Of a stretch of 64,000 nt of DNA, positions 1 through 59,411 are shown in pieces. The notes beneath the pieces are model-generated. The model had not been told where the DNA came from. It ran no database searches and worked only from the letters and a program-made list of their open reading frames with translations. The stretch spans positions 3,844,001-3,908,000 of the forward strand of contig NC_086108.1 in the NCBI RefSeq assembly GCF_963921235.1, written 5' to 3'. The translations under genes and the position numbers were made by a program. The first letter of the stretch is position 1; every line of letters starts with the position of its first letter. This stretch comes from Mobula hypostoma. Lineage: Eukaryota.

Positions 1-3000
1 AGGAGCCCGATGGTTGTGGGGTAATAACTGTTCCTGAAGCTGGCGGTGTGGGACCTGAGGCTCATTGTGGTGGGTGAAGTTATCCACACTGGTTCAGGAG
101 CCTGATGGTTGTGTGGTAATAACTGTTCCTGAACCTGCTGGTGTGGGACCTGAGGCTCATTGTGGTGAGTGAAGTTATCCACACTGGTTCAGGAGCCTGA
201 TGGTTGTGGGGTAATAACTGTTCCTGAACATGGTGGTGTGGGACCTCATTGTGGTGAGTGAAGTTATCCACACTGGTTCAGGAGCCTGATGGCTGTGGGG
301 TAATAACTGTTCCTGAACCTGCTGGTGTGGGACCTGCGGCTCATTGTGGTGAGTGAAGTTATCCACACTGGTTCAGGAGCCTGATGGTTGTGGGGTAATA
401 ACTGTTCCTGAACCTGCTGGTGTGGGACCTGAGGCTCATTGTGGGGAATGAAGTTATCCACACTGGTTCAGGAGCCTGATGGTTGTGGGGTAATAACTGT
501 TCCTGAACCTGCTGGTGTGGGACCTGAGGCTCATTGTGGTGAGTGAAGTTATCCACACTGGTTCAGGAGCCTGATGGTTGTGGGGTAATAACTGTTCCTG
601 AACCTGGTGGTGTGGGACCTCATTGTGGTGAGTGAAGTTATCCACACTAGTTCAGGAGCCTGATGGCTGTGGGGTAATAACTGTTCCTGAACCTGGTGGT
701 GTGGGACCTGAGGCTCATTGTGGTGGGTGAAGTTATCCACACTGGTTCAGGAGCCTGATGGTTGTGGGGTAATAACTGTTCCTGAACCTGGTGGTGTGGG
801 ACCCTCATTGTGGTGAGTGAAGTTATCCACACTGGTTCAGGAGCCTGATGGTTGTGGGGTAATAACTGTTCCTGAACCTGGTGGTGTGGGACCTGAGGCT
901 CATTGTGGTGGGTGAAGTTATCCACACTGGTTCAGGAGCCTGATGGTTGTGGGGTAATAACTGTTCCTGAACCTGCTGGTGTGGGACCTGAGGCTCATTG
1001 TGGTGAGTGAAGTTATCCACACTGGTTCAGGAGCCTGATGGTTGTGGGGTAATAACTGTTCCTGAACCTGCTGGTGTGGGACCTGAGGCTCATTGTGGGG
1101 AGTGAAGTTATCCACACTGGTTCAGGAGCCTGATGGTTGTGGGGTAATAACTGTTCCTGAACCTGCTGGTGTGGGAGCTGAGGCTCATTGTGGGGAGTGA
1201 AGTTATCCACACTGGTTCAGGAGCCCGATGGTTGTGGGGTAATAACTGTTCCCGAACCTGGCGGTGTGGGACCTGAGGCTCATTGTGGTGAGTGAAGTTA
1301 TCCACACTGGTTCAGGAGCCCGATGGTTGTGGGGTAATAACTGTTCCCGAACCTGGTGGTGTGGGACCTGAGGCTCATTGTGGTGGGTGAAGTTATCCAC
1401 ACTGGTTCAGGAGCCTGATGGTTGTGGGGTAATAACTGTTCCTGAACCTGGTGGTGTGGGACCTGAGGCTCATTGTGGTGGGTGAAGTTATCCACACTGG
1501 TTCAGGAGCCTGATGGTTGTGGGGTAATAACTGTTCCTGAACCTGCTGGTGTGGGACCTGAGGATGATTGTGGTGAGTGAAGTTATCCACACTGGTTCAG
1601 GAGCCTCATGGTTGTGGGGTAATAACTGTTCCTGAACCTGCTGGTTTGGGACCTGAGGCTCATTGTGGGGAGTGAAGTTATCCACACTGGTTCAGCAGCC
1701 TGATGGTTGTGGGGTAATAACTGTTCCTGAACCTGCTGGTGTGGGACCTGAGGCTCATTGTGGTGAGTGAAGTTATCCACGCTGGTTCAGGAGCCTGATG
1801 GTTGTGGGGTAATAACTGTTCCTGAACCTGGTGGTGTGGGACCTCATTGTGGTGAGTGAAGTTATCCACACTGGTTCAGGAGCCTGATGGCTGTGGGGTA
1901 ATAACTGTTCCTGAACCTGCTGGTGTGGGACCAGAGGCTCATTGTGGGGAGTGAAGTTATCCACACTGGTTCAGGAGCCTGATGGTTGTGGGGTAATAAC
2001 TGTTCCTGAACCTGGTGGTGTGGGACCTGAGGCTCATTGTGGTGAGTGAAGTTATCCATACTGGTTCAGGAGCCCGATGGTTGTGGGGTAATAACTGTTC
2101 CCAAACCTGGCGGTGTGGGACCTGAGGCTCATTGTGGTGAGTGAAGTTATCCACACTGGTTCAGGAGCCCGATGGTTGTGGGGTAATAACTGTTCCTGAA
2201 CCTGGTGGTGTGGGATCTGAGGCTCATTGTGGTGGGTGAAGTTATCCACACTGGTTCAGGAGCCTGATGGTTGTGGGGTAATAACTGTTCCTGAACCTGG
2301 TGGTGTGGGACCTGAGGCTCATTGTGGTGGGTGAAGTTATCCACACTGGTTCAGGAGCCTGATGTTTGTGGGGTAATAACTGTTCCTGAACCTGCTGGTG
2401 TGGGACCTGAGGCTGATTGTGGTGAGTGAAGTTATCCACACTGGTTCAGGAGCCTGATGGTTGTGGGGTAATAACTGTTCCTGAACCTGCTGGTTTGGGA
2501 CCTGAGGCTCATTGTGGGGAGTGAAGTTATCCACACTGGTTCAGCAGCCTGATGGTTGTGGGGTAATAACTGTTCCTGAACCTGCTGGTGTGGGACCTGA
2601 GGCTCATTGTGGTGAGTGAAGTTATCCACACTGGTTCAGGAGCCTGATGGTTGTGGGGTAATAACTGTTCCTGAACCTGGTGGTGTGGGACCTCATTGTG
2701 GTGAGTGAAGTTATCCACACTGGTTCAGGAGCCTGATGGCTGTGGGGTAATAACTGTTCCTGAACCTGCTGGTGTGGGACCAGAGGCTCATTGTGGGGAG
2801 TGAAGTTATCCACACTGGTTCAGGAGCCTGATGGTTGTGGGGTAATAACTGTTCCTGAACCTGGTGGTGTGGGACCTGAGGCTCATTGTGGTGAGTGAAG
2901 TTATCCACACTGGTTCAGGAGGCCGATGGTTGTGGGGTAATAATTGTTCCTGAAGCTTGCGGTGTGGGACCTGAGGCTCATTGTGGTGGGTGAAGTTATC

Positions 3001-6000
3001 CACACTGGTTCAGGAGCCCGATGGTTGTGGGGTAATAACTGTTCCTGAAGCTGGCGGTGTGGGACCTGAGGCTCATTGTGGTGGGTGAAGTTATCCACAC
3101 TGGTTCAGGAGCCCGATGGTTGTGGGGTAATAACTGTTCCTGAATCTGCTGGTGTGGGACCTGAGGCTCATTGTGGTGGGTGAAGTTATCCACACTGGTT
3201 CAGGAGCCTGATGGTTCTGTGGTAATAACTGTTCCTGAACCTGCTGGTGTGGGACCTGAGGCTCATTGTGGTGGGTGAAGTTATCCACACTGGTTCAGGA
3301 GCCTGATGGTTGTGGGGTTATAACTGTTCCTGAACCTGCTGGTGTGGGACCTGAGGCTCATTGTGGTGAGTGAAGTTATCCACACTGGTTCAGGAGCCTG
3401 ATGGTTGTGGGGTAATAACTGTTCCTGAACCTGGTGGTTTGGGACCTGAGGCTCATTGTGGGGAGTGAAGTTATCCACACTGGTTCAGGAGCCTGATGGT
3501 TGTGGGGTAATAACTGTTCCTGAACCTGCTGGTGTGGGACCTGAGGCTCATTGTGGTGAGTGAAGTTATCCACACTGGTTCAGGAGCCTGATGGTTGTGG
3601 GGTAATAACTGTTCCTTAACCTGGTGGTGTGGGACCTCATTGTGGTGAGTGAAGTTATCCACACTGGTTCAGGAGCCTGATGGTTGTGGGGTAATAACTG
3701 TTCCTGAACCTGCTGGTGTGGGACCTGCGGCTCATTGTGGTGAGTGAAGTTATCCACACTGGTTCAGGAGCCTGATGGTTGTGGGGTAATAACTGTTCCT
3801 GAACCTGGTGGTGTGGGACCTGAGGCTCATTGTGGTGGGTGAAGTTATCCACACTGGTTCAGGAGCCTGATGGTTGTGGGGTAATAACTGTTCCTGAACC
3901 TGCTGGTGTGGGACCTGAGGCTCATTGTGGGGAGTGAAGTTATCCACACTGGTTCAGGAGCCTGATGGTTGTCGGGTAATAACTGTTCCTGAACCTGCTG
4001 GTGTGGGACCTGAGGCTCATTGTGGTGAGTGAAGTTATCCACACTGGTTCAGGAGCCTGATGGTTGTGGGGTAATAACTGTTCCTGAACCTGGTGGTGTG
4101 GGACCTCATTGTGGTGAGTGAAGTTATCCACACTGGTTCAGGAGCCTGATGGCTGTGGGGTAATAACTGTTCCTGAACCTGCTGGTGTGGGACCTGCGGC
4201 TCATTGTGGTGAGTGAAGTTATCCACACTGGTTCAGGAGCCTGAAGGTTGTGGGGTAATAACTGTTCCTGAACCTGGTGGTGTGGGACCTGAGGCTCATT
4301 GTGGTGAGTGAAGTTATCCACACTGGTTCAGGAGCCTGATGGTTGTGGGGTAATAACTGTTCCTGAACCTTCTGGTGTGGGACCTGAGGCTCATTGTGGT
4401 GAGTGAAGTTATCCACACTGGTTCAGGAGCCTGATGGTTGTGGGGTAATAACTGTTCCTGAACCTGGTGGTGTGGGACCTGAGGCTCATTGTGGGGAGTG
4501 AAGTTATCCACACTGGTTCAGGAACCTGACGGTTGTGGGGTAATAACTGTTCCTGAACCTGGTGGTGTGGGACCTGAGGCTCATTGTGGTGAGTGAAGTT
4601 ATCCACACTGGTTCAGGAGCCTGACGGTTGTGGGGTAATAACTGTTCCTGAACCTGGTGGTGTGGGACCTGAGACTCATTGTGGTGAGTGAAATTATCCA
4701 CACTGGTTCAGGAGCCTGACGGTTGTGGGGTAATAATTGTTCCTGAACCTGGTGGTGTGGGACCTGAGGCTCATTGTGGTGAGTGAAGTTATCCACACTG
4801 GTTCAGGAGCCCGATGGTTGTGGGGTAATAATTGTTCCCGAACCTGGTGGTGTGGGACCTGAGGCTCATTGTGGTGAGTGAAGTTATCCATACTGGTTCA
4901 GGAGCCCGATGGTTGTGGGGTAATAACTGTTCCCGAACCTGGCGGTGTGGGACCTGAGGCTCATTGTGGTGAGTGAAGTTATCCACACTGGTTCAGGAGC
5001 CCGATGGTTGTGGGGTAATAACTGTTCCCGAACCTGGTGGTGTGGGACCTGAGGCTCATTGTGGTGGGTGAAGTTATCCACACTGGTTCAGGAGCCTGAT
5101 GGTTGTGGGGTAATAACTGTTCCTGAACCTGGTGGTGTGGGACCTGAGGCTCATTGTGGTGGGTGAAGTTATCCACACTGGTTCAGGAGCCTGATGGTTG
5201 TGGGGTAATAACTGTTCCTGAACCTGCTGGTGTGGGACCTGAGGCTGATTGTGGTGAGTGAAGTTATCCACACTGGTTCAGGAGCCTCATGGTTGTGGGG
5301 TAATAACTGTTCCTGAACCTGCTGGTTTGGGACCTGAGGCTCATTGTGGGGAGTGAAGTTATCCACACTGGTTCAGCAGCCTGATGGTTGTGGGGTAATA
5401 ACTGTTCCTGAACCTGCTGGTGTGGGACCTGAGGCTCATTGTGGTGAGTGAAGTTATCCACACTGGTTCAGGAGCCTGATGGTTGTGGGGTAATAACTGT
5501 TCCTGAACCTGGTGGTGTGGGACCTCATTGTGGTGAGTGAAGTTATCCACACTGGTTCAGGAGCCTGATGGCTGTGGGGTAATAACTGTTCCTGAACCTG
5601 CTGGTGTGGGACCAGAGGCTCATTGTGGGGAGTGAAGTTATCCACACTGGTTCAGGAGCCTGATGGTTGTGGGGTAATAACTGTTCCTGAACCTGGTGGT
5701 GTGGGACCTGAGGCTCATTGTGGTGAGTGAAGTTATCCACACTGGTTCAGGAGGCCGATGGTTGTGGGGTAATAATTGTTCCTGAAGCTTGCGGTGTGGG
5801 ACCTGAGGCTCATTGTGGTGGGTGAAGTTATCCACACTGGTTCAGGAGCCCGATGGTTGTGGGGTAATAACTGTTCCTGAAGCTGGCGGTGTGGGACCTG
5901 AGGCTCATTGTGGTGGGTGAAGTTATCCACACTGGTTCAGGAGCCTGATGGTTGTGTGGTAATAACTGTTCCTGAACCTGCTGGTGTGGGACCTGAGGCT

Positions 6001-9000
6001 CATTGTGGTGAGTGAAGTTATCCACACTGGTTCAGGAGCCTGATGGTTGTGGGGTAATAACTGTTCCTGAACATGGTGGTGTGGGACCTCATTGTGGTGA
6101 GTGAAGTTATCCACACTGGTTCAGGAGCCTGATGGCTGTGGGGTAATAACTGTTCCTGAACCTGCTGGTGTGGGACCTGCGGCTCATTGTGGTGAGTGAA
6201 GTTATCCACACTGGTTCAGGAGCCTGATGGTTGTGGGGTAATAACTGTTCCTGAACCTGCTGGTGTGGGACCTGAGGCTCATTGTGGGGAATGAAGTTAT
6301 CCACACTGGTTCAGGAGCCTGATGGTTGTGGGGTAATAACTGTTCCTGAACCTGCTGGTGTGGGACCTGAGGCTCATTGTGGTGAGTGAAGTTATCCACA
6401 CTGGTTCAGGAGCCTGATGGTTGTGGGGTAATAACTGTTCCTGAACCTGGTGGTGTGGGACCTCATTGTGGTGAGTGAAGTTATCCACACTAGTTCAGGA
6501 GCCTGATGGCTGTGGGGTAATAACTGTTCCTGAACCTGGTGGTGTGGGACCTGAGGCTCATTGTGGTGAGTGAAGTTATCCACACTGGTTCAGGAGCCTG
6601 ATGGTTGTGGGGTAATAACTGTTCCTGAACCTGGTGGTGTGGGACCTGAGGCTCATTGTGGTGGGTGAAGTTATCCACACTGGTTCAGGAGCCTGATGGT
6701 TGTGGGGTAATAACTGTTCCTGAACCTGCTGGTGTGGGACCTGAGGCTCATTGTGGTGAGTGAAGTTATCCACACTGGTTCAGGAGCCTGATGGTTGTGG
6801 GGTAATAACTGTTCCTGAACCTGCTGGTGTGGGACCTGAGGCTCATTGTGGGGAGTGAAGTTATCCACACTGGTTCAGGAGCCTGATGGTTGTGGGGTAA
6901 TAACTGTTCCTGAACCTGCTGGTGTGGGAGCTGAGGCTCATTGTGGGGAGTGAAGTTATCCACACTGGTTCAGGAGCCTGATGGTTGTGGGGTAATGACT
7001 GTTCCTGAACCTGGTGGTGTGGGACCTGAGGCTCATTGTGGTGAGTGAAGTTATCCACACTGGTTCAGGAGCCTGATGGTTGTGGGGTAATAACTGTTCC
7101 TGAACCTGGTGGTGTGGGACCTGAGGCTCATTGTGGTGAGTGAAGTTATCCACACTGGTTCAGGAGCCTGACGGTTGTGGGGTAATAACTGTTCCTGAAC
7201 CTGGTGGTGTGGGACCTGAGGCTCATTGTGGTGAGTGAAGTTATCCACACTGGTTCAGGAGGCCGATGGTTGTGGGGTAATAATTGTTCCTCAAGCTGGC
7301 GGTGTGGGACCTGAGGCTCATTGTGGTGGGTGAAGTTAACCACACTGGTTCAGGAGCCCGATGGTTGTGGGGTAATAACTGTTCCTGAAGCTGGCGGTGT
7401 GGGACCTGAGGCTCATTGTGGTGGGTGAAGTTATCCACACTGGTTCAGGAGCCCGATGGTTGTGGGGTAATAACTGTTCCTGAACCTGCTGGTGTGGGAC
7501 CTGAGGCTCATTGTGGTGGGTGAAGTTATCCACACTGGTTCAGGAGCCTGATGGCTGTGGGGTAATAACTGTTCCTGAACCTGCTGGTGTGGGACCTGAG
7601 GCTCATTGTGGTGGGTGAAGTTATCCACACTGGTTCAGGAGTCTGATGGTTGTGGGGTAATAACTGTTCCTGAACCTGCTGGTGTGGGACCTGAGGCTCA
7701 TTGTGGTGAGTGAAGTTATCCACACTGGTTCAGGAGCCTGATGGTTGTGGGGTAATAACTGTTCCTGAACCTGCTGGTGTGGGACCTGAGGCTCATTGTG
7801 GGGATTGAAGTTATCCACACTGGTTCAGGAGCCTGATGGTTGTGGGGTAATAACTGTTCCTGAACCTGCTGGTGTGGGACCTGAGGCTCATTGTGGGGAG
7901 TGAAGTTATCCACACTGGTTCAGGAGCCTGATGGTTGTGGGGTAATAACTGTTCCTGAACCTGCTGGTGTGGGACCTGAGTCTCATTGTGGTGAGTGAAG
8001 TTATCCACACTGGTTCAGGAGCCTGATGGCTGTGGGGTAATAACTGTTCCTGAACCTGGTGGTGTGGGACCTGAGGCTCATTGTGGTGAGTGAAGTTATC
8101 CACACTGGTTCAGGAGCCTGATGGTTGTGGGGTAATAACTGTTCCTGAACCTGGTGGTGTGGGACCTGAGGCTCATTGTGGTGGGTGAAGTTATCCACAC
8201 TGGTTGAGGAGCCTGATGGTTGTGGGGTAATAACTGTTCCTGAACCTGCTGGTGTGGAACCTGAGGCTCATTGTGGTGAGTGAAGTTATCCACACTGGTT
8301 CAGGAGCCTGATGGTTGTGGGGTAATAACTGTTCCTGAACCTGCTGGTGTGGGACCTGAGGCTCATTGTGGTGAGTGAAGTTATCCACACTGGTTCAGGA
8401 GCCTGATGGTTGTGGGGTAATAACTGTTCCTGAACCTGCTGGTGTGGGACCTGAGGCTCATTGTGGGGATTGAAGTTATCCACACTGGTTCAGGAGCCTG
8501 ATGGTTGTGGGGTAATAACTGTTCCTGAACCTGCTGGTGTGGGACCTGAGGCTCATTGTGGGGAGTGAAGTTATCCACACTGGTTCAGGAGCCTGATGGT
8601 TGTGGGGTAATAACTGTTCCTGAACCTGCTGGTGTGGGACCTGAGTCTCATTGTGGTGAGTGAAGTTATCCACACTGGTTCAGGAGCCTGATGGCTGTGG
8701 GGTAATAACTGTTCCTGAACCTGGTGGTGTGGGACCTGAGGCTCATTGTGGTGAGTGAAGTTATCCACACTGGTTCAGGAGCCTGATGGTTGTGGGGTAA
8801 TAACTGTTCCTGAACCTGGTGGTGTGGGACCTGAGGCTCATTGTGGTGGGTGAAGTTATCCACACTGGTTCAGGAGCCTGATGGTTGTGGGGTAATAACT
8901 GTTCCTGAACCTGCTGGTGTGGAACCTGAGGCTCATTGTGGTGAGTGAAGTTATCCACACTGGTTCAGGAGCCTGATGGTTGTGGGGTAATAACTGTTCC

Positions 9001-12000
9001 TGAACCTGCTGGTGTGGGACCTGAGGCTCATTGTGGGGAGTGAAGTTATCCACACTGGTTCAGGAGCCTGATGGTTGTGGGGTAATAACTGTTCCTGAAC
9101 CTGCTGTTGTGGGACCTGAGGCTCATTGTGGGGAGTGAAGTTATCCACACTGGTTCAGGAGCCTGATGGTTGTGGGGTAATAACTGTTCCTGAACCTGGT
9201 GGTGTGGGACCTGAGGCTCATTGTGGTGGGTGAAGTTATCCACACTGGTTCAGGAGCCTGATGGTTGTGGGGTAATAACTGTTCCTGAACCTGCTGGTGT
9301 GGGACCTGAGGCTCATTGTGGTGAGTGAAGTTATCCACACTGGTTCAGGAGCCTGATGGTTGTGGGGTAATAACTGTTCCTGAACCTGCTGGTGTGGGAC
9401 CTGAGGCTCATTGTTGGGAGTGAAGTTATCCACACTGGTTCAGGAGCCTGATGGTTGTGGGGTAATAACTGTTCCTGAACCTGGTGGTGTGGGACCTGAG
9501 GCTCATTGTGGGGAGTGAAGTTATCCACACTGGTTCAGGAGCCTGATGGTTGTGGGGTAATGACTGTTCCTGAACCTGGTGGTGTGGGACCTGAGGCTCA
9601 TTGTGGTGAGTGAAGTTATCCACACTGGTTCAGGAGCCTGATGGTTGTGGGGTAATAACTGTTCCTGAACCTGGTGGTGTGGGACCTGAGGCTCATTGTG
9701 GTGAGTGAAGTTATCCACACTGGTTCAGGAGCCTGACGGTTGTGGGGTAATATCTGTTCCTGAACCTGGTGGTGTGGGACCTGAGGCTCATTGTGGTGAG
9801 TAAAGTTATCCACACTGGTTCAGGAGGCCGATGGTTGTGGGGTAATAATTGTTCCTGAAGCTGGCGGTGTGGGACCTGAGGCTCATTGTGTTGGGTGAAG
9901 TTATCCACACTGGTTCAGGAGCCCGATGGTTGTGGGGTAATAACTGTTCCTGAAGCTGGCGGTGTGGGACCTGAGGCTCATTGTGGTGGGGGAAGTTATC
10001 CACACTGGTTCAGGAGCCCGATGGTTGTGGGGTAATAACTGTTCCTGAACCTGCTGGTGTGGGACCTGAGGCTCATTGTGGTGGGTGAAGTTACCCACAC
10101 TGGTTCAGGAGCCTGATGGCTGTGGTGTAATAACTGTTCCTGAACCTGCTGGTGTGGGACCTGAGGCTCATTGTGGTGGGTGAAGTTATCCACACTGGTT
10201 CAGGAGTCTGATGGTTGTGGGGTAATAACTGTTCCTGAACCTGCTGGTGTGGGACCTGAGGCTCATTGTGGTGAGTGAAGTTATCCACACTGGTTCAGGA
10301 GCCTGATGGTTGTGGGGTAATAACTGTTCCTGAACCTGCTGGTGTGGGACCTGAGGCTCATTGTGGGGATTGAAGTTATCCACACTGGTTCAGGAGCCTG
10401 ATGGTTGTGGGGTAATAACTGTTCCTGAACCTCCTGGTGTGGGACCTGAGGCTCATTGTGGGGAGTGAAGTTATCCACACTGGTTCAGGAGCCTGATGGT
10501 TGTGGGGTAATAACTGTTCCTGAACCTGCTGGTGTGGGACCTGAGTCTCATTGTGGTGAGTGAAGTTATCCACACTGGTTCAGGAGCCTGATGGCTGTGG
10601 GGTAATAACTGTTCCTGAACCTGGTGGTGTGGGACCTGAGGCTCATTGTGGTGAGTGAAGTTATCCACACTGGTTCAGGAGCCTGATGGTTGTGGGGTAA
10701 TAACTGTTCCTGAACCTGGTGGTGTGGGACCTGAGGCTCATTGTGGTGGGTGAAGTTATCCACACTGGTTCAGGAGCCTGATGGTTGTGGGTGTAATAAC
10801 TGTTCCTGAACCTGCTGGTGTGGAACCTGAGGCTCATTGTGGTGAGTGAAGTTATCCACACTGGTTCAGGAGCCTGATGGTTGTGGGGTAATAACTGTTC
10901 CTGAACCTGCTGGTGTGGGACCTGAGGCTCATTCTGGGGAGTGAAGTTATCCACACTGGTTCAGGAGCCTGATGGTTGTGGGGTAATAACTGTTCCTGAA
11001 CCTGCTGGTGTGGGACCTGAGGCTCATTGTGGGGAGTGAAGTTATCCACACTGGTTCAGGAGCCTGATGGTTGTGGGGTAATAACTGTTCCTGAACCTGG
11101 TGGTGTGGGACCTGAGGCTCATTGTGGTGAGTGAAGTTATCCACACTGGTTCAGGAGCCTGACGGTTGTGGGGTAATAACTGTTCCTGAACCTGGTGGTG
11201 TGGGACCTGAGGCTCATTGTGGTGAGTGAAGTTATCCACACTGGTTCAGGAGCCTGATGGTTGTGGGGTAATAACTGTTCCTGAACCTTGTGGTGTGGGA
11301 CCTGAGGCTCATTGTGGTGAGTGAAGTTATCCACACTGGTTCAGGAGCCCGAAGGTTGTGGGGTAATAATTGTTCCTGAACCTGGTGGTGTGGGACCTGA
11401 GTCTCATTGTGGTGAGTGAAGTTATCCACACTGGTTCAGGAGCCCGATGGTTGTGGGGTAATAACTGTTCCTGAAGCTGGCGGTGTGGGACCTGAGGCTC
11501 ATTGTGGTGGGTGAAGTTATCCACACTGGTTCAGGAGCCCGATGGTTGTGGGGTAATAACTGTTCCTGAATCTGCTGGTGTGGGACCTGAGGCTCATTGT
11601 GGTGGGTGAAGTTATCCACACTGGTTCAGGAGCCTGATGGTTGTGGGGTAATAACTGTTCCTGAACCTGCTGGTGTGGGACCTGAGGCTCATTGTGGGGA
11701 ATGAAGTTATCCACACTGGTTCAGGAGCCTGATGGTTGTGGGGTAATAACTGTTCCTGAACCTGCTGGTGTGGGACCTGAGGCTCATTGTGGGGATTGAA
11801 GTTATCCACACTGGTTCAGGAGCCTGACGGTTGTGGGGTAATAACTGTTCCTGAACCTGCTGGTGTGGGACCTGAGGCTCATTGTGGTGAGTGAAGTTAT
11901 CCACACTGGTTCAGGAGCCTGATGGTTGTGGGGTAATAACTGTTCCTGAACCTGGTGGTGTGGGACCTCATTGTGGTGAGTGAAGTTATCCACACTGGTT

Positions 12001-15000: not shown

Positions 15001-18000
15001 TGGTGGGTGAAGTTATCCACACTGGTTCAGGAGCCTGATGGTTGTGGGGTAATAACTGTTCCTGAACCTGCTTGTGTGGAACCTGAGGCTCATTGTGGTG
15101 AGTGAAGTTATCCACACTGGTTCAGGAGCCTGATGGTTGTGGGGTAATAACTGTTCCTGAACCTGCTGGTGTGGGACCTGAGGCTCATTGTGGGGAGTGA
15201 AGTTATCCACACTGGTTCAGGAGCCTGATGGTTGTGGGGTAATAACTGTTCCTGAACCTGCTGGTGTGGGACCTGAGGCTCATTGTGGGGAGTGAAGTTA
15301 TCCACACTGGTTCAGGAGCCTGATGGTTGTGGGGTAATAACTGTTCCTGAACCTGGTGGTGTGGGACCTGAGGCTCATTGTGGTGAGTGAAGTTATCCAC
15401 ACTGGTTCAGGAGCCTGACGGTTGTGGGGTAATAACTGTTCCTGAACCTGGTGGTGTGGGACCTGAGGCTCATTGTGGTGAGTGAAGTTATCCACACTGG
15501 TTCAGGAGCCTGATGGTTGTGGGGTAATAACTGTTCCTGAACCTTGTGGTGTGGGACCTGAGGCTCATTGTGGTGAGTGAAGTTATCCACACTGGTTCAG
15601 GAGCCCGATGGTTGTGGGGTAATAATTGTTCCTGAACCTGGTGGTGTGGGACCTGAGGCTCATTGTGGTGAGTGAAGTTATCCACACTGGTTCAGGAGCC
15701 TGATGGTTGTGGGGTAATAACTGTTCCTGAAGCTGGCGGTGTGGGACCTGAGGCTCATTGTGGTGAGTGAAGTTATCCACACTGGTTCAGGAGCCTGATG
15801 GTTGTGGGGTAATAACTGTTCCTGAACCTGGTGGTGTGGGACCTGAGGCTCATTGTGGTGGGTGAAGTTATCCACACTGGTTCAGGAGCCTGATGGTTGT
15901 GGGGTAATAACTGTTCCTGAACCTGGTGGTGTGGGACCTGAGGCTCATTGTGGTGGGTGAAGTTATCCACACTGGTTCAGGAGCCTGATGGTTGTGGGGT
16001 AATAATTGTTCCTGAAGCTGGCGGTGTGGGACCTAAGAATCATTGTGGTGGGTGAAGTTATCCACACTGGTTCAGGAGCCCGATGGTTGTGGGGTAATAA
16101 CTATTCCTGAACCTTCTGGTGTGGGACCTGAGGCTCATTGTGGTGAGTGAAGTTATCCACTTTGGTTCAGGAGCCTGATGTTTGTGGGGTAATAACTGTT
16201 CCTGAACCTGCTGGAGTGGGACCTGAGGCTCATTGTGGGGAGTTAAGTTATCCACACTGGTTCAGGAGCCTGATGGTTGTGGGGTAATAACTGTTCCTGA
16301 ACCTGCTGGTGTGGGACCTGAGGCTCATTGTGGTGAGTGAAGTTATCCACACTGGTTCAGGAGCCTGATGGTTTTGGGGTAATAACTGTTCCTGAACCTG
16401 CTGGTGTGGGACCTGAGGCTCATTGTGGTGGGTGAAGTTATCCACACTGGTTCAGGAGCCTGATGGTTGTGGGGTAATAACTGTTCCTGAACCTTCTGGT
16501 CTGGGACCTGAGGCTGATTGTGGTGAGTGAAGTTATCCACACTGGTTCAGGAGCCTGATGGTTGTGGGGTAATAACTGTTCCTGAACCTGGTGGTGTGGG
16601 ACCTGAGGCTCATTGTGGTGAGTGAAGTTATCCACACTGGTTCAGGAGCCTGACGGTTGTGGGGTAATAACTGTTCCTGAACCTGGTGGTGTGGGACCTG
16701 AGGCTCATTGTGGTGAGTGAAATTATCCACACTGGTTCAGGAGCCTGACGGTTGTGGGGTAATAATTGTTCCTGAAGCTGGCGGTGTGGGACCTAAGGCT
16801 CATTGTGGTGGGTGAAGTTATCCACACTGGTTCAGGAGCCCGATGGTTGTGGGGTAATAACTGTTCCTGAACCTGCTGGTGTGGGACCTGAGGCTCATTG
16901 TGGTGGGTGAAGTTATCCACACTGGTTCAGGAGCCTGGTGGTTGAGGGGTAATAACTGTTCCTGAACCTGCTGGTGAGGGACCTGAGGCTCATTGTGGTG
17001 AGTGAAGTTATCCACACTGGTTCAGGAGCCTGATGGTTGTGGGGTAATAACTGTTCCTGAACCTGCTGGTGTGGGACCTGAGGCTCATTGTGGGGAGTGA
17101 AGTTATCCACACTGGTTCAGGAGCCTGATGGTTGTGGGGTAATAACTGTTCCTGAACCTGCTGGTGTGGGACCTGAGGCTCATTGTGGTGAGTGAAGTTA
17201 TCCACACTGGTTCAGGAGCCTGATGGTTGTGGGGTAATAACTGTTCCTGAACCTGGTGGTGTGGGACCTCATTGTGGTGAGTGAAGTTATCCACACTGGT
17301 TCAGGAGCCTGATGGCTGTGGGGTAATAACTGTTGCTGAACCTGCTGGTGTGGGACCTGAGGCTCATTGTGGTGAGTGAAGTTATCCACACTGGTTCAGG
17401 AGCCTGATGGTTGTGGGGTAATAACTGTTCCTGAACCTGCTGGTGTGGGACCTGAGGCTCATTGTGGTGGGTGAAGTTATCCACACTGGTTCAGGAGCCT
17501 GATGGTTGTGGGGTAATAACTGTTCCTGAACCTGCTGGTGTGGGACCTGAGGCTCATTGTGGTGAGTGAAGTTATCCACACTGGTTCAGGAGCCTGATGG
17601 TTGTGGGGTAATAACTGTTCCTGAACCTTCTGGTGTGGGATCTGAGGCTCATTGTGGTGAGTGAAGTTATCCACACTGGTTCAGGAGCCTGATGGTTGTG
17701 GGGTAATAACTGTTCCTGAACCTTCTGGTGTGGGACCTGAGGCTCATTGTGGGGAGTGAAGTTATCCACACTGGTTCAGGAGCCTGATGGTTGTGGGGTA
17801 ATAACTGTTCCTGAACCTGGTGGTGTGGGACCTGAGGCTCATTGTGGGGAGTGAAGTTATCCACACTGGTTCAGGAACCTGACGGTTGTGGGGTAATAAC
17901 TGTTCCTGAACCTGGTGGTGTGGGACCTGAGGCTCATTGTGGTGAGTGAAGTTATCCACACTGGTTCAGGAGCCTGACGGTTGTGGGGTAATAACTGTTC

Positions 18001-21000
18001 CTGAACCTGGTGGTGTGGGACCTGAGGCTCATTGTGGTGAGTGAAATTATCCACACTGGTTCAGGAGCCTGACGGTTGTGGGGTAATAATTGTTCCTGAA
18101 CCTGATGGTGTGGGACCTGAGGCTCATTGTGGTGAGTGAAGTTATCCACACTGGTTCAGGAGCCTGATGGTTGTGGGGTAATAACTGTTTCTGAACCTGG
18201 CGGTGTGGGACCTGAGGCTCATTGTGGTGGGTGAAGTTATCCACACTGGTTCAGGAGCCTGATGGTTGTGGGGTAATAACTGTTCCTGAACCTGGCGGTG
18301 TGGGACCTGAGGCTCATTGTGGTGGGTGAAGTTATCCACACTGGTTCAGGAGCCTGATGGTTGTGGGGTAATAACTGTTCCTGAACCTGCTGGTGTGGGA
18401 CCTGAGGCTCATTGTGGTGGGTGAAGTTATCCACACTGGTTCAGGAGCCCGATGGTTGTGGGGTAATAATTGTTCCCGAACCTGGTGGTGTGGGACCTGA
18501 GGCTCATTGTGGTGAGTGAAGTTATCCACACTGGTTCAGGAGCCTGATGGTTGTGGGGTAATAACTGTTCCTGAACCTGGTGGTGTGGGACCTCATTGTG
18601 GTGAGTGAAGTTATCCACACTGGTTCAGGAGCCTGATGGCTGTGGGGTAATAACTGTTCCTGAATCTGCTGGTGTGGGACCTGAGGCTCATTGTGGTGGG
18701 TGAAGTTATCCACACTGGTTCAGGAGCCTGATGGTTGTGGGGTAATAACTGTTCCTGAACCTTCTGGTCTGGGACCTGAGGCTGATTGTGGTGAGTGAAG
18801 TTATCCACACTGGTTCAGGAGCCTGATGGTTGTGGGGTAATAACTGTTCCTGAACCTGGTGGTGTGGGACCTGAGGCTCATTGTGGTGAGTGAAGTTATC
18901 CACACTGGTTCAGGAGCCTGACGGTTGTGGGGTAATAACTGTTCCTGAACCTGGTGGTGTGGGACCTGAGGCTCATTGTGGTGAGTGAAATTATCCACAC
19001 TGGTTCAGGAGCCTGACGGTTGTGGGGTAATAATTGTTCCTGAAGCTGGCGGTGTGGGACCTAAGGCTCATTGTGGTGGGTGAAGTTATCCACACTGGTT
19101 CAGGAGCCCGATGGTTGTGGGGTAATAACTGTTCCTGAACCTGCTGGTGTGGGACCTGAGGCTCATTGTGGTGGGTGAAGTTATCCACACTGGTTCAGGA
19201 GCCTGGTGGTTGAGGGGTAATAACTGTTCCTGAACCTGCTGGTGAGGGACCTGAGGCTCATTGTGGTGAGTGAAGTTATCCACACTGGTTCAGGAGCCTG
19301 ATGGTTGTGGGGTAATAACTGTTCCTGAACCTGCTGGTGTGGGACCTGAGGCTCATTGTGGGGAGTGAAGTTATCCACACTGGTTCAGGAGCCTGATGGT
19401 TGTGGGGTAATAACTGTTCCTGAACCTGCTGGTGTGGGACCTGAGGCTCATTGTGGTGAGTGAAGTTATCCACACTGGTTCAGGAGCCTGATGGTTGTGG
19501 GGTAATAACTGTTCCTGAACCTGGTGGTGTGGGACCTCATTGTGGTGAGTTAAGTTATCCACACTGGTTCAGGAGCCTGATGGCTGTGGGGTAATAACTG
19601 TTGCTGAACCTGCTGGTGTGGGACCTGAGGCTCATTGTGGTGAGTGAAGTTATCCACACTGGTTCAGGAGCCTGATGGTTGTGGGGTAATAACTGTTCCT
19701 GAACCTGCTGGTGTGGGACCTGAGGCTCATTGTGGTGGGTGAAGTTATCCACACTGGTTCAGGAGCCTGATGGTTGTGGGGTAATAACTGTTCCTGAACC
19801 TGCTGGTGTGGGACCTGAGGCTCATTGTGGTGAGTGAAGTTATCCACACTGGTTCAGGAGCCTGATGGTTGTGGGGTAATAACTGTTCCTGAACCTTCTG
19901 GTGTGGGATCTGAGGCTCATTGTGGTGAGTGAAGTTATCCACACTGGTTCAGGAGCCTGATGGTTGTGGGGTAATAACTGTTCCTGAACCTTCTGGTGTG
20001 GGACCTGAGGCTCATTGTGGGGAGTGAAGTTATCCACACTGGTTCAGGAGCCTGATGGTTGTGGGGTAATAACTGTTCCTGAACCTGGTGGTGTGGGACC
20101 TGAGGCTCATTGTGGGGAGTGAAGTTATCCACACTGGTTCAGGAACCTGACGGTTGTGGGGTAATAACTGTTCCTGAACCTGGTGGTGTGGGACCTGAGG
20201 CTCATTGTGGTGAGTGAAGTTATCCACACTGGTTCAGGAGCCTGACGGTTGTGGGGTAATAACTGTTCCTGAACCTGGTGGTGTGGGACCTGAGGCTCAT
20301 TGTGGTGAGTGAAATTATCCACACTGGTTCAGGAGCCTGACGGTTGTGGGGTAATAATTGTTCCTGAACCTGATGGTGTGGGACCTGAGGCTCATTGTGG
20401 TGAGTGAAGTTATCCACACTGGTTCAGGAGCCTGATGGTTGTGGGGTAATAACTGTTTCTGAACCTGGCGGTGTGGGACCTGAGGCTCATTGTGGTGGGT
20501 GAAGTTATCCACACTGGTTCAGGAGCCTGATGGTTGTGGGGTAATAACTGTTCCTGAACCTGGCGGTGTGGGACCTGAGGCTCATTGTGGTGGGTGAAGT
20601 TATCCACACTGGTTCAGGAGCCTGATGGTTGTGGGGTAATAACTGTTCCTGAACCTGCTGGTGTGGGACCTGAGGCTCATTGTGGTGGGTGAAGTTATCC
20701 ACACTGGTTCAGGAGCCCGATGGTTGTGGGGTAATAATTGTTCCCGAACCTGGTGGTGTGGGACCTGAGGCTCATTGTGGTGAGTGAAGTTATCCACACT
20801 GGTTCAGGAGCCTGATGGTTGTGGGGTAATAACTGTTCCTGAACCTGGTGGTGTGGGACCTCATTGTGGTGAGTGAAGTTATCCACACTGGTTCAGGAGC
20901 CTGATGGCTGTGGGGTAATAACTGTTCCTGAATCTGCTGGTGTGGGACCTGAGGCTCATTGTGGTGAGTGAAGTTATCCACACTGGTTCAGGAGCCTGAT

Positions 21001-24000
21001 GGTTGTGGGGTAATAACTGTTCCTGAACCTGCTGGTGTGGGAGCTGAGGCTCATTGTGGTGGGTGAAGTTATCCACACTGGTTCAGGAGCCTGATGGTTG
21101 TGGGGTAATAACTGTTCCTGAACCTGCTGGTGTGGGACCTGAGGCTCATTGTGGTGAGTGAAGTTATCCACACTGGTTCAGGAGCCTGATGGTTGTGGGG
21201 TAATAACTGTTCCTGAACCTTCTGGTGTGGGACCTGAGGCTCATTGTGGTGAGTGAAGTTATCCACACTGGTTCAGGAGCCTGATGGTTGTGGGGTAATA
21301 ACTGTTCCTGAACCTTCTGGTGTGGGACCTGAGGCTCATTGTGGGGAGTGAAGTTATCCACACTGGTTCAGGAGCCTGATGGTTGTGGGGTAATAACTGT
21401 TCCTGAACCTGGTGGTGTGGGACCTGAGGCTCATTGTGGGGAGTGAAGTTATCCACACTGGTTCAGGAACCTGACGGTTGTGGGGTAATAACTGTTCCTG
21501 ATACTGGTGGTGTGGGACCTGAGGCTCATTGTGGTGAGTGAAGTTATCCACACTGTTTCAGGAGCCTGACGGTTGTGGGGTAATAACTGTTCCTGAACCT
21601 GGTGGTGTGGGACCTGAGGCTCATTGTGGTGAGTGAAATTATCCACACTGGTTCAGGAGCCTGACGGTTGTGGGGTAATAATTGTTCCTGAACCTGGTGG
21701 TGTGGGACCTGAGGCTCATTGTGGTGAGTGAAGTTATCCACACTGGTTCAGGAGCCTGATGGTTGTGGGGTAATAACTGTTCCTGAACCTGGCGGTGTGG
21801 GACCTGAGGCTCATTGTGGTGGGTGAAGTTATCCACACTGGTTCAGGAGCCTGATGGTTGTGGGGTAATAACTGTTCCTGAACCTGGCGGTGTGGGACCT
21901 GAGGCTCATTGTGGTGGGTGAAGTTATCCACACTGGTTCAGGAGCCTGATGGTTGTGGGGTAATAACTGTTCCTGAACAAGCTGGTGTGGGACCTGAGGC
22001 TCATTGTGGTGGGTGAAGTTATCCACACTGGTTCAGGAGCCCGATGGTTGTGGGGTAATAATTGTTCCCGAACCTGGTGGTGTGGGACCTGAGGCTCATT
22101 GTGGTGAGTGAAGTTATCCATACTGGTTCAGGAGCCCGATGGTTGTGGGGTAATAACTGTTCCCGAACCTGGTGGTGTGGGACCTGAGGCTCATTGTGGT
22201 GAGTGAAGTTATCCACACTGGTTCAGGAGCCCGATGGTTGTGGGGTAATAACTGTTCCTGAACCTGGTGGTGTGGGACCTGAGGCTCATTGTGGTGGGTG
22301 AAGTTATCCACACTGGTTCAGGAGCCTGATGGTTGTGGGGTAATAACTGTTCCTGAACCTGGTGGTGTGGGACCTGAGGCTCATTGTGGTGGGTGAAGTT
22401 ATCCACACTGGTTCAGGAGCCTGATGGTTGTGGGGTAATAACTGTTCCTGAACCTGGTGGTGTGAGACCTGAGGCTCATTGTGGTGAGTGAAGTTATCCA
22501 CACTGGTTCAGGAGCCTGATGGTTGTGGGGTAATAACTGTTCCTGAACCTGGTGGTGTGGGACCTGAGGCTCATTGTGGTGAGTGAAGTTATCCACACTG
22601 GTTCCGGAGCCTGACGGTTGTGGGGTAATAACTGTTCCTGAACCTGGTGGTGTGGGACCTGAGGCTCATTGTGGTGGGTGAAGTTATCCACACTGTTTCA
22701 GGAGCCTGGTGGTTGAGGGGTAATAACTGTTCCTGAACCTGCTGGTGTGGGACCTGAGGCTCATTGTGGTGAGTGAAGTTATCCACACTGGTTCAGGAGC
22801 CTGATGGTTGTGGGGTAATAACTGTTCCTGAACCTGCTGGTGTGGGACCTGAGGCTCATTGTGGGGAGTGAAGTTATCCACACTGGTTCAGGAGCCTGAT
22901 GGTTGTGGGGTAATAACTGTTCCTGAACCTGCTGGTGTGGGACCTGAGGCTCATTGTGGTGAGTGAAGTTATCCACACTGGTTCAGGAGCCTGATGGTTG
23001 TGGGGTAATAACTGTTCCTGAACCTGGTGGTGTGGGACCTCATTGTGGTGAGTTAAGTTATCCACACTGGTTCAGGAGCCTGATGGCTGTGGGGTAATAA
23101 CTGTTGCTGAACCTGCTGGTGTGGGACCTGAGGCTCATTGTGGTGAGTGAAGTTATCCACACTGGTTCAGGAGCCTGATGGTTGTGGGGTAATAACTGTT
23201 CCTGAACCTGCTGGTGTGGGACCTGAGGCTCATTGTGGTGGGTGAAGTTATCCACACTGGTTCAGGAGCCTGATGGTTGTGGGGTAATAACTGTTCCTGA
23301 ACCTGCTGGTGTGGGACCTGAGGCTCATTGTGGTGAGTGAAGTTATCCACACTGGTTCAGGAGCCTGATGGTTGTGGGGTAATAACTGTTCCTGAACCTT
23401 CTGGTGTGGGACCTGAGGCTCATTGTGGTGAGTGAAGTTATCCACACTGGTTCAGGAGCCTGATGGTTGTGGGGTAATAACTGTTCCTGAACCTTCTGGT
23501 GTGGGACCTGAGGCTCATTGTGGGGAGTGAAGTTATCCACACTGGTTCAGGAGCCTGATGGTTGTGGGGTAATAACTGTTCCTGAACCTGGTGGTGTGGG
23601 ACCTGAGGCTCATTGTGGGGAGTGAAGTTATCCACACTGGTTCAGGAACCTGACGGTTGTGGGGTAATAACTGTTCCTGAACCTGGTGGTGTGGGACCTG
23701 AGGCTCATTGTGGTGAGTGAAGTTATCCACACTGGTTCAGGAGCCTGACGGTTGTGGGGTAATAACTGTTCCTGAACCTGGTGGTGTGGGACCTGAGGCT
23801 CATTGTGGTGAGTGAAATTATCCACACTGGTTCAGGAGCCTGACGGTTGTGGGGTAATAATTGTTCCTGAACCTGGTGGTGTGGGACCTGAGGCTCATTG
23901 TGGTGAGTGAAGTTATCCACACTGGTTCAGGAGCCTGATGGTTGTGGGGTAATAACTGTTTCTGAACCTGGCGGTGTGGGACCTGAGGCTCATTGTGGTG

Positions 24001-26254
24001 GGTGAAGTTATCCACACTGGTTCAGGAGCCTGATGGTTGTGGGGTAATAACTGTTCCTGAACCTGGCGGTGTGGGACCTGAGGCTCATTGTGGTGGGTGA
24101 AGTTATCCACACTGGTTCAGGAGCCTGATGGTTGTGGGGTAATAACTGTTCCTGAACCTGCTGGTGTGGGACCTGAGGCTCATTGTGGTGGGTGAAGTTA
24201 TCCACACTGGTTCAGGAGCCCGATGGTTGTGGGGTAATAATTGTTCCCGAACCTGGTGGTGTGGGACCTGAGGCTCATTGTGGTGAGTGAAGTTATCCAC
24301 ACTGGTTCAGGAGCCTGATGGTTGTGGGGTAATAACTGTTCCTGAACCTGGTGGTGTGGGACCTCATTGTGGTGAGTGAAGTTATCCACACTGGTTCAGG
24401 AGCCTGATGGCTGTGGGGTAATAACTGTTCCTGAATCTGCTGGTGTGGGACCTGAGGCTCATTGTGGTGAGTGAAGTTATCCACACTGGTTCAGGAGCCT
24501 GATGGTTGTGGGGTAATAACTGTTCCTGAACCTGCTGGTGTGGGAGCTGAGGCTCATTGTGGTGGGTGAAGTTATCCACACTGGTTCAGGAGCCTGATGG
24601 TTGTGGGGTAATAACTGTTCCTGAACCTGCTGGTGTGGGACCTGAGGCTCATTGTGGTGAGTGAAGTTATCCACACTGGTTCAGGAGCCTGATGGTTGTG
24701 GGGTAATAACTGTTCCTGAACCTTCTGGTGTGGGACCTGAGGCTCATTGTGGTGAGTGAAGTTATCCACACTGGTTCAGGAGCCTGATGGTTGTGGGGTA
24801 ATAACTGTTCCTGAACCTTCTGGTGTGGGACCTGAGGCTCATTGTGGGGAGTGAAGTTATCCACACTGGTTCAGGAGCCTGATGGTTGTGGGGTAATAAC
24901 TGTTCCTGAACCTGGTGGTGTGGGACCTGAGGCTCATTGTGGGGAGTGAAGTTATCCACACTGGTTCAGGAACCTGACGGTTGTGGGGTAATAACTGTTC
25001 CTGATACTGGTGGTGTGGGACCTGAGGCTCATTGTGGTGAGTGAAGTTATCCACACTGGTTCAGGAGCCTGACGGTTGTGGGGTAATAACTGTTCCTGAA
25101 CCTGGTGGTGTGGGACCTGAGGCTCATTGTGGTGAGTGAAATTATCCACACTGGTTCAGGAGCCTGACGGTTGTGGGGTAATAATTGTTCCTGAACCTGG
25201 TGGTGTGGGACCTGAGGCTCATTGTGGTGAGTGAAGTTATCCACACTGGTTCAGGAGCCTGATGGTTGTGGGGTAATAACTGTTCCTGAACCTGGCGGTG
25301 TGGGACCTGAGGCTCATTGTGGTGGGTGAAGTTATCCACACTGGTTCAGGAGCCTGATGGTTGTGGGGTAATAACTGTTCCTGAACCTGGCGGTGTGGGA
25401 CCTGAGGCTCATTGTGGTGGGTGAAGTTATCCACACTGGTTCAGGAGCCTGATGGTTGTGGGGTAATAACTGTTCCTGAACCTGCTGGTGTGGGACCTGA
25501 GGCTCATTGTGGTGGGTGAAGTTATCCACACTGGTTCAGGAGCCCGATGGTTGTGGGGTAATAATTGTTCCCGAACCTGGTGGTGTGGGACCTGAGGCTC
25601 ATTGTGGTGAGTGAAGTTATCCATACTGGTTCAGGAGCCCGATGGTTGTGGGGTAATAACTGTTCCCGAACCTGGTGGTGTGGGACCTGAGGCTCATTGT
25701 GGTGAGTGAAGTTATCCACACTGGTTCAGGAGCCCGATGGTTGTGGGGTAATAACTGTTCCTGAACCTGGTGGTGTGGGACCTGCGGCTCATTGTGGTGG
25801 GTGAAGTTATCCACACTGGTTCAGGAGCCTGATGGTTGTGGGGTAATAACTGTTCCTGAACCTGGTGGTGTGGGACCTGAGGCTCATTGTGGTGGGTGAA
25901 GTTATCCACACTGGTTCAGGAGCCTGATGGTTGTGGGGTAATAACTGTTCCTGAACCTGGTGGTGTGAGACCTGAGGCTCATTGTGGTGAGTGAAGTTAT
26001 CCACACTGGTTCAGGAGCCTGATGGTTGTGGGGTAATAACTGTTCCTGAACCTGGTGGTGTGGGACCTGAGGCTCATTGTGGTGAGTGAAGTTATCCACA
26101 CTGGTTCCGGAGCCTGACGGTTGTGGGGTAATAACTGTTCCTGAACCTGGTGGTGTGGGACCTGAGGCTCATTGTGGTGAGTGAAGTTATCCACACTGGT
26201 TCAGGAGCCTGATGGTTGTGGGGTAATAATTGTTCCTGAACCTGGTGGTGTGGG
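1..26254 (-). repeat. 95-bp tandem satellite (about 275-280 monomers, with 89-bp deletion variants) derived from a Rex1/Babar-type LINE ORF2 3' end; continues beyond the window start
   Basis: Consensus GTTATCCACACTGGTTCAGGAGCCTGATGGTTGTGGGGTAATAACTGTTCCTGAACCTGSTGGTGTGGGACCTGAGGCTCATTGTGGTGRGTGAA repeats with a 95-bp period (ORF track steps of 95 or 89). The minus strand reads RSHTTRFRNSYYPTTIRLLNQCG*. Confidence 0.98.
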
Positions 26255-26480
26255 TCCTAACGCTTCTGTACCTCCTTCGTGATGGCAGCAGTGAGAAGAG
26301 AGCATGGCCTGTGTGGTGGGGGTTGTTGATAATGGGTGCTGCTTTCTTGTGGATGTACTCAATGTTGAGGAGAGAACTTCATGCGATGGACTGGGCTGTA
26401 CCCAGCACTATTTGTAGGCTTTTCCATTGGTGTTTCCATGCCAGGCTGTGATGCAGCCAGTCACAATATCTCACTATTTC
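26255..26480 (-). mobile_element. Rex1/Babar-type LINE fragment, contiguous with the satellite (parent element body)
   Basis: Minus strand reads degenerate TGCITAWHGNT...KAAPIINNPHHTGHALFSLLPSRRRYRSVRTHTTRFRN, running without a break into the first monomer. Confidence 0.88.
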
Positions 26481-26665
26481 CCGTTTGACTGGGTTCACAT
26501 GCTGGAGCTCCCTCCACATCAGCCCAGTGGGAGCACCTTCACCTGAAGAACGGCAATCATTCAAGAAGGTAAATGATAACCCTCCTTCACGAGGACAATT
26601 CGGAGATGGTTAGATGTTGGTCTCTCCAGTGGTGTGCAGATCCAGAATAAAAATAAGTTAGTTAG

Positions 26666-35709: not shown

Positions 35710-35713
35710 CAGA

Positions 35714-37881: not shown

Positions 37882-37883
37882 AT

Positions 37884-54540: not shown

Positions 54541-54620
54541 GAGTTAATAATTAATACTGAGAACATGAGTTGCAGCCCTTGATAGTGAGTCCATAGGTTG
54601 TGGAATCAGTTCAGTGTTGG

Positions 54621-59410: not shown

Positions 59411-59411
59411 G

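What the first reader, a model, noticed from the sequence alone, without database searches (positions are those of the whole stretch)
1..26480. A satellite of more than 26 kb born from the 3' end of a Rex1/Babar LINE, still attached to its parent
Seen: the 95-bp monomer translates on the minus strand to the Rex/Babar ORF2 C-terminal motif plus the stop codon and a short piece of 3' UTR, and the array merges into an ordinary LINE body at 26255. Established: TE fragments can seed satellites. Inference: this is the birth or insertion site of a large satellite that may have centromeric or subtelomeric roles. I do not recognise it as a named satellite.
Basis: partly seen in the sequence, partly recalled or inferred. 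Interest (0 to 1): 0.75.

Follow-up and report, generated by a model that had tools for sequence, protein, structure and literature searches.

The report
Ray satellite from a LINE end
A real block of more than 26,000 bases consists of a 95-base piece from the tail of a jumping gene repeated about 277 times; the same piece also sits as short arrays inside two other, older copies of that jumping gene nearby, so the neighbouring copy is probably a landing site rather than the parent, a variation on a known way satellites arise and spread.

Summary
Observation confirmed. Window 1-26258 is a 95-bp satellite (277.6 copies, 96% pairwise identity, nested higher-order blocks). Each unit is the last 25 codons of a fish-type LINE ORF2 (RT plus PF09004), the stop and 16 nt of 3' UTR. 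It runs into a short, 5'-truncated LINE relic (26255 to about 26475).

'Still attached to its parent' is doubtful. Units differ about 4% between arrays, their LINE flanks 23-26%. The relic at 26255-26265 has four letters that at most 3 of 255 units share, and its insertion is shared with another organism 10% diverged next to it.

Best reading (0.5): one founding duplication, growth by unequal exchange, spread into older LINE copies by homology-directed conversion. No evidence for a centromeric or telomeric role; no genome was available. The Rex1/Babar label is recalled, not tested. Architecture matches squamate SINE-derived satellites; LINE-derived satellites are known. The scan noted two other TE-born satellites in this genome, not this one. 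Interest 0.38.

The parts
1..26254 (-). Array A1: at least 277 units of 95 bp (LINE sense is the minus strand), open at the window's left edge; nested higher-order blocks of 14, 24 and 37 units; an 89-bp deletion variant in 18 of 276 intervals
26171..26265 (-). First unit of A1: host-specific letters at 26255, 26259, 26261, 26265, then array-type sequence from 26254 inward (conversion boundary or unhomogenised edge)
   Evidence: these letters in 0, 3, 0 and 1 of 255 units; table 3 (read majority has the monomer's letter at 26259, 26261, 26265 in 4 of 4 runs; 26255 not among the rows shown)
26255..26477 (-). Host LINE relic of A1: about 210 bp of ORF2 3' end, 5'-truncated, with deletions and a frameshift; at least 17 of 156 places differ from the family majority
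26434..26700 (.). Single-copy contig joining the relic's 5' end to unique DNA, found in runs of three organisms (0 of 267, 10 of 268, 27 of 263 letters differ): the host insertion predates their split
   Evidence: table 8; only about 37-44 letters of the contig are LINE
54617..55131 (-). Array A2: 5.5 units of the same monomer, cut in mid-unit at 55131 with no LINE body beyond
54546..54616 (-). 3' UTR flank of A2, about 70 nt, then cut off by the tail of another retroelement; first 30 nt match the read consensus at 28-30 of 30
   Evidence: by-eye comparison table 7
58561..59224 (+). Array A3: 7 units replacing exactly one unit of an otherwise colinear LINE copy
58390..58560 (+). ORF2 flank of A3 (5'-truncated host LINE); 25.6% diverged from the A1 flank; 7 of the last 30 nt differ from the read consensus
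   Evidence: by-eye comparison table 7
59225..59855 (+). 3' UTR and tail of the A3 host, interrupted at about 59415-59830 by a 5'-truncated LINE of a related family; 22.5% diverged from the A2 flank, with a 6-nt deletion

Best explanation
A LINE-derived satellite that spreads by homology into older copies of its own LINE family. (1, shown) The unit is the last 25 codons, stop and 16 nt of UTR of an abundant LINE family. (2, inferred) The head-to-tail junction arose once, in a copy close to the family consensus, not necessarily here. (3, pattern shown, mechanism inferred) Arrays grow by unequal exchange, leaving nested duplications of 14, 24 and 37 units. (4, inferred) Because every dispersed LINE 3' end carries one homologous unit, a break in or near such a copy can be repaired from an array; the single old unit is replaced by several young ones, with the switch point at the edge of the unit. 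A3 (7 units between two old flanks) is the clean product; A1 is such a site that later expanded, or the end of a larger block that recombined with this relic; A1 may in turn be the local donor for A2 and A3, 28-32 kb away. (5, inferred) The array is non-coding, probably neutral heterochromatic DNA; no centromere role is shown.
For: Same unit, phase and junction in three arrays. Units differ 3.9-4.5% between arrays; flanks differ at 33 of 129 and 16 of 71 aligned letters (Fisher p 9e-6 and 5e-4). All 4 private differences of A1's first unit lie in its first 11 of 95 nt (p 1e-4) and are nearly absent from monomers (1, 0, 3, 0 of 255); the read majority sides with the monomer at 3 of those places in 4 of 4 runs. 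Host relic differs from the family majority at 17 or more of 156 places, the unit at 1 listed place of 83 (p 0.008), and units are 2.3 letters from their consensus, so monomer lineages look younger than the host. Host insertion is shared with an organism 10% diverged in the adjacent DNA. A3 loses and duplicates no host sequence outside the unit. A2 shares the linked rare pair G25C+G58C found in 4 of 275 A1 units (0.2 expected if independent). All 3 copies of this subfamily that cover the unit in the window carry arrays, whereas reads show many single-unit copies elsewhere (tables 7, 8). Lag-37 identity 14.2% against at most 6.7% in 200 shuffles. Precedent for spread into homologous resident repeats: Rsp-like into 1.688 clusters (PMC7403614, passages).
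Against: Only three loci and no genome: no empty-site or genome-wide test. The sharp step in A1's first unit is also what an unhomogenised array edge gives after in-situ birth. 29 rows of the read table are hidden; if the unit has 3 fixed differences from the family the contrast with the host drops to p 0.08. The 30 nt next to A1's first unit match the read consensus at 29 of 30, and A2's 3' flank at 28-30 of 30 (by eye, table 7), so these flanks are not uniformly old; A2 (mid-unit 5' cut plus young-looking UTR) also fits retrotransposition. The read consensus mixes subfamilies (agreement 0.61-0.81), so flank differences may be subfamily differences. The A2 unit with the shared pair is still 4 letters from its nearest A1 unit. 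No listed contig spans the A1 host-array junction.
Confidence: 0.5

Rival explanations
1. An old LINE subfamily master already carried a few tandem units and retrotransposed them to many sites; later inter-locus gene conversion kept the units alike while the flanks decayed, and A1 expanded in place.
For: Explains the single junction and the exact register with LINE flanks in all three arrays. Squamate sSats show the same pattern, ascribed to concerted evolution: units 89% alike, SINEs 64% (PMC10702118).
Against: Needs complete overwriting of a 7-unit array up to its edges (first and last unit of A3 are 2 of 95 from the A1 consensus) while the next 30 nt differ at 7 of 30; the A1 and A3 flanks may belong to different subfamilies (25.6% apart). 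It still requires DNA exchange between loci.
Confidence: 0.2
2. One reading: the satellite was born in situ from this LINE copy at 26255, expanded, and seeded A2 and A3 locally.
For: Array is colinear and in frame with the relic; edge units commonly escape homogenisation (established knowledge); A2 and A3 lie within 33 kb and their gap-free units are 0-2 letters from A1 units in 9 of 10 cases; the scan noted two in-situ TE-born satellites in this genome (unchecked).
Against: Monomers lack the host's letters inside the unit span. Under in-situ birth at any time each monomer should be as far from the family as the host (11% or more, about 10 letters); observed about 3-5. A3 is an equally good candidate by anatomy, and at most one of three can be the birthplace.
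Confidence: 0.15
3. Recent RNA-mediated mobilisation: transcripts running from an array into the LINE 3' UTR are copied by LINE ORF2p in trans, giving 5'-truncated array-plus-UTR inserts.
For: A2 is cut in mid-unit on its 5' side and has a near-consensus UTR start. A run guessed to be RNA holds sequence like the unit (X15), which may be DNA or ordinary LINE.
Against: Cannot give A3, whose two flanks are old and whose units are young, nor A1's old shared host; no target-site duplication was identified at A2; its UTR is cut by a decayed element.
Confidence: 0.1
4. The array's length is largely an assembly expansion or the junction is a mis-join.
For: One 24-unit block is duplicated with 1 difference in 2.3 kb, and 21 of 28 singleton variants are transversions, which may include base errors. 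No read spanning the array was available.
Against: 107 distinct units of 276, nested duplications of graded age (0.04% to 1.2% per base) and heritable variant strings; the same unit-in-LINE register recurs in A2 and A3, which are short enough for any long read; the unique flank is matched with 0 differences in run X1.
Confidence: 0.05

Closest known systems
SINE-derived satellites (sSat1-3) of squamate reptiles, Vassetzky, Kosushkin and Ryskov 2023, PMC10702118 (parts 1-4 of 5 of the text read)
   Same: Units of 70-290 nt from part of a retroposon; a few to about 1000 units per locus; arrays keep parent-element sequence at one end, rarely both; units far more alike across loci than the elements; alternating subvariants in long loci.
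   Different: Here the source is the coding end of an autonomous LINE in a cartilaginous fish; the paper ascribes likeness to concerted evolution and did not compare flank age with unit age in the parts I read; subtelomeric bias is untested here.
LINE-derived satellites: common cetacean satellite (L1 3' part), chicken HinfI (CR1 ORF2 and 3' UTR), PROsat and Pvc20 (L1 ORF2), as listed in PMC9659126 (passages)
   Same: Satellite monomer contains LINE ORF2 or 3' terminal sequence; the 3' end is named as prone to this.
   Different: Different LINE clades and hosts; here the 95-bp unit is wholly LINE and short and long arrays sit in register inside several LINE copies.
Rsp-like satellite spreading into resident 1.688 clusters in Drosophila simulans and mauritiana, Sproul et al. 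2020, PMC7403614 (passages)
   Same: A satellite appears at loci where a homologous abundant repeat was already present; proposed routes are interlocus gene conversion and eccDNA reintegration.
   Different: There the two satellites are unrelated and joined by microhomology; here the landing pad is a dispersed LINE relic with a full unit of homology. Their synteny test was possible; mine was not.
Rex1/Babar LINEs (review PMC6274825, passages)
   Same: Fish non-LTR element with RT, 5'-truncated copies, conserved 3' UTR ending in a short oligonucleotide tail.
   Different: The passages read mention no Rex1-derived satellite; membership of this family rests on a recalled motif.

Membership tests
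Satellite DNA | Long head-to-tail array of a short non-coding unit | tested here: met
   277.6 copies of 95 bp; a stop in every unit, stop-free frames of 67-88 aa near the edge; no protein match for the junction-spanning frame
Satellite DNA | Concerted evolution and higher-order structure | tested here: met
   96.1% identity; lags 37, 24, 61, 14 above every one of 200 shuffles
Satellite DNA | Heterochromatic location, genome-wide abundance | not testable with these tools
   No genome; contig depth is no copy number; the flanking 37 kb holds TE frames and no host gene that I recognised
TE-derived satellite of the sSat type | Unit is a sub-segment of an interspersed element | tested here: met
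TE-derived satellite of the sSat type | Terminal extension into parent-element sequence at one or both ends | tested here: met
   A1 5' side, A2 3' side, A3 both
TE-derived satellite of the sSat type | Units more alike across loci than the elements are | tested here: met
   about 4% against 23-26%, three loci only
TE-derived satellite of the sSat type | Subtelomeric bias | tested here: inconclusive
   No TTAGGG pair in the window (0 matches); at least 2.59 Mb and 48.75 Mb of the piece lie to either side
Rex1/Babar LINE clade | Non-LTR RT with the PF09004 domain and this C-terminal motif in fishes | tested here: met
   P0001 hits an RVT_1+PF09004 fish protein, 47% identity, E 3e-8; 120 of 120 listed relatives carry both domains. 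That this architecture marks Rex1/Babar is recalled; a search for DUF1891 with Rex found 0 papers
Rex1/Babar LINE clade | RT tree placement with named Rex1 or Babar elements; match to a Dfam or Repbase consensus | not testable with these tools
   No hit was named Rex1 or Babar; no repeat library available
Centromeric satellite | CENP-A occupancy, presence at the primary constriction of many chromosomes | not testable with these tools
   A recalled CENP-B-box pattern gave 2 one-mismatch hits, both outside the array, 2.65 expected by chance; uninformative in a fish

The most novel reading that the evidence does not exclude
A satellite that 'homes': it uses the very many dispersed relics of its parent LINE as landing pads across the genome, replacing their single 95-bp segment with arrays of 5 to several hundred units. 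Each event would have a datable host and an empty orthologue in related rays, giving a natural series for measuring how satellites colonise new loci in a vertebrate.
Probability: 0.3. Interest if true: 0.62.

Novelty: new member of a known kind. Interest (0 to 1): 0.38.

Why it matters
That TE pieces seed satellites is established, and the anatomy here repeats what is described for squamate SINE satellites. The added value is the contrast of young units with old flanks at three neighbouring loci, which points to DNA-level spread into resident LINE copies rather than birth in place. If this holds genome-wide, it makes the long-standing question of how a satellite reaches new loci testable by simple orthologue comparison among ray genomes. 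It also warns that an array 'attached' to a TE copy does not identify its birthplace.

Tried and rejected
No whole genome is held, so array number, sizes, positions and A1's left end are unknown. Two scans of metagenome contigs, for the junction and for the LINE motif, gave 0 matches. The junction-spanning 67-aa frame found no protein of 36-118 residues. Pfam gave nothing for the 3 window peptides; PDB nothing for a full-length relative; Rfam 0 matches in 25000-64000. Whether other species carry the satellite stayed open: eight other coded organisms appear (seven hold 25-33% of the words, one only 10-12%), but shared LINE words and the orthologous flank can give that, and my laid stretch contained the junction, so could not count it apart; the joined-form table was not given. 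No RNA holder was listed. Depth excess over the unit in X1 and X13 is not usable as copy number. A 9-bp inverted repeat in the unit folds only weakly better than shuffles (z -1.7 as DNA, 16 of 200; z -2.2 as RNA, 7 of 200): not counted as evidence. Earlier notes showed no look-alike of this unit. Literature: 10 searches listed no paper on a Rex-derived or ray satellite of this kind; I saw only listings for most hits. The manta and devil ray genome preprint (10.64898/2026.10.27.761883, passages) reports repeat classes only; its supplementary repeat table was not seen. PMC9004415 (passages) only gives the clade's range. Dfam, Repbase and subscription journals could not be searched, so the unit may already be in a repeat library. 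Rejected: coding repeat (stop in each unit); independent birth of three arrays (identical junction).

Full report
What is there. The first 26,258 bases are a tandem array of a 95-bp unit, 277.6 copies, and the window begins inside it. Of 276 intervals between anchors, 255 are 95 bp and 18 are an 89-bp deletion form; 107 are distinct; the 255 are 96.1% identical pairwise and 2.3 letters from their consensus on average. The order of variants is not random: identity at lags 37, 24, 61 and 14 (14.2, 10.7, 10.2, 8.8%) exceeds the largest value in 200 shuffles (6.7%), and duplicated blocks differ by 0.04% to 1.2% per base. That is the pattern expected of repeated unequal exchange (established knowledge) and is hard to get from an assembler, although the near-perfect 24-unit block and the transversion-rich singletons (21 of 28) leave room for local errors.

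What the unit is. On the minus strand it holds 25 codons, a TAA and 16 nt. The frame of the adjoining flank (63 aa) hits a fish protein with RVT_1 and PF09004 at 47% identity, E 3e-8, at its very end. An HMM of the C-termini of its relatives scores a lone unit at E 1.1e-7 among 1516 frame pieces, and 58 of the 60 proteins with the motif (of 120 examined) end within 7 residues of it. So the unit is the ORF2 end, stop and UTR start of a fish-type LINE. The family is abundant: 74,587 contigs of run X1 were laid on 581 bases, with loose ends running into ORF2 on one side and the 3' UTR on the other. Earlier notes call the organism a devil ray (unchecked).

TRF shows two more arrays of the same unit: A2 at 54617-55131 and A3 at 58561-59224. 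A3 is a 5'-truncated LINE copy in which one unit is replaced by seven, with ORF2 on the left and the UTR on the right and no host sequence lost. A2 has a UTR flank and is cut in mid-unit on the other side. All share the same junction and phase.

Is the relic at 26255 the parent? Units differ by 3.9-4.5% between arrays, but the A1 and A3 ORF2 flanks differ at 33 of 129 aligned letters and the A2 and A3 UTR flanks at 16 of 71 (p 9e-6, 5e-4). The first unit of A1 has four letters (26255, 26259, 26261, 26265) found in 0, 3, 0 and 1 of 255 monomers, all within its first 11 nt (p 1e-4); at three of them the read majority agrees with the monomer in 4 of 4 runs, and 26255 is not among the rows shown. 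The relic differs from the family majority at 17 or more of 156 places, the unit at one listed place of 83 (p 0.008; 0.08 if hidden rows add two more). A single-copy contig joining the relic's end to unique DNA is present in three organisms with 0, 10 and 27 differences in about 265 letters, so the host insertion is old, though only about 40 letters of that contig are LINE. If the array had been born from this copy, each monomer should be as far from the family as the host is; it is about half as far or less. Against this: the step at 26255 also fits an unhomogenised edge; the 30 nt beyond the first unit match the read consensus at 29 of 30 and A2's UTR start at 28-30 of 30 (by-eye comparison table 7), while A3's flanks differ at 7 of 30 and 4-5 of 23 plus a deletion; and the read consensus mixes subfamilies.

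How it most likely works (0.5). One founding duplication in a near-consensus copy (inferred); growth by unequal exchange (pattern shown); spread by homology-directed repair in which an array serves as donor and a dispersed LINE relic as recipient (inferred from young units between old flanks, exact register, and a rare linked variant pair shared by A2 and 4 of 275 A1 units). All 3 copies of this subfamily that cover the unit in this window carry arrays while single-unit copies are common in the reads, which hints at a proximity effect. Rivals: an old array-bearing LINE master with later homogenisation (0.2); birth in place at A1 with export to A2 and A3 (0.15); RNA-mediated copying of array plus UTR, which fits A2 alone (0.1); assembly artefact (0.05). 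The first three readings all need DNA exchange between loci. Function: probably none; each unit has a stop, no protein or RNA family matches, and nothing here bears on centromeres or telomeres (at least 2.59 Mb and 48.75 Mb of the piece lie on either side).

Comparison with what is known. Squamate SINE-derived satellites have the same anatomy: arrays of a sub-segment, parent sequence at one or both ends, units more alike than the elements (PMC10702118, parts 1-4 of 5 read). LINE-derived satellites from ORF2 or 3' ends are listed for cetaceans, chicken, a hamster and a seal (PMC9659126, passages). Spread of a satellite into resident homologous repeats is described in Drosophila (PMC7403614, passages). 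Ten searches found no description of this unit or of a Rex-derived satellite in rays, but repeat libraries and one preprint's supplement were not seen. It works like an sSat and meets the tests I could run for a TE-derived satellite; it is not shown to be centromeric, and its clade label is untested.

Verdict. Real, correctly read as LINE-derived, probably wrongly read as sitting on its parent. A new member of a known kind, interest 0.38. The bolder reading, genome-wide homing into LINE relics, has probability about 0.3 and would deserve about 0.62; it can be settled with the assembly and two or three related ray genomes.

Noticed in passing
table 5, joint 26165 to 26120: Contigs in 4 of 4 runs go back 46 places with two letters between: a second, 48-bp tandem duplication of the same LINE segment seems to exist elsewhere, at a short internal likeness in the unit; its depth in the possible RNA run X15 is about that of DNA run X1 although X15 is otherwise some 20 times shallower. 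Absent from this window (0 matches).
   Followed up: partly
window 1-26258: The unit consensus has no CpG, but 5 of the 20 commonest variants create one (37, 31, 28, 13 and 5 of 255 units): either ancestral CpGs decaying under methylation or GC-biased conversion.
   Followed up: no
window about 53790-54535: Decayed ORF end with a (TAA)n tail that cuts A2's UTR; the motif looks like a restriction-like endonuclease of R4/Rex6-type elements (recalled, not tested; translation).
   Followed up: no
window 35184-45393: LTR retrotransposon with gag-, protease-, RT-, RNase H- and integrase-like broken frames (recalled motifs), LTRs 87% alike, interrupted by a CR1-like LINE at about 36800-40850 with long open frames of 360, 345 and 611 aa.
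   Followed up: no
window 55430-55690 and 57940-58070: One older LINE copy of a related subfamily, single-unit, split by a CR1-like insertion; a similar single-unit copy at 30000-30500.
   Followed up: partly
window about 59415-59830: A 5'-truncated LINE of another family of the same RT type, with an unbroken frame and a short-repeat tail, inserted into the tail of A3's host.
   Followed up: no
window 26300-64000: The whole right part is nested TE debris; I recognised no host gene among 52 frames of 110 aa or more (by eye). A degenerate CT microsatellite lies at 60149-60606.
   Followed up: no
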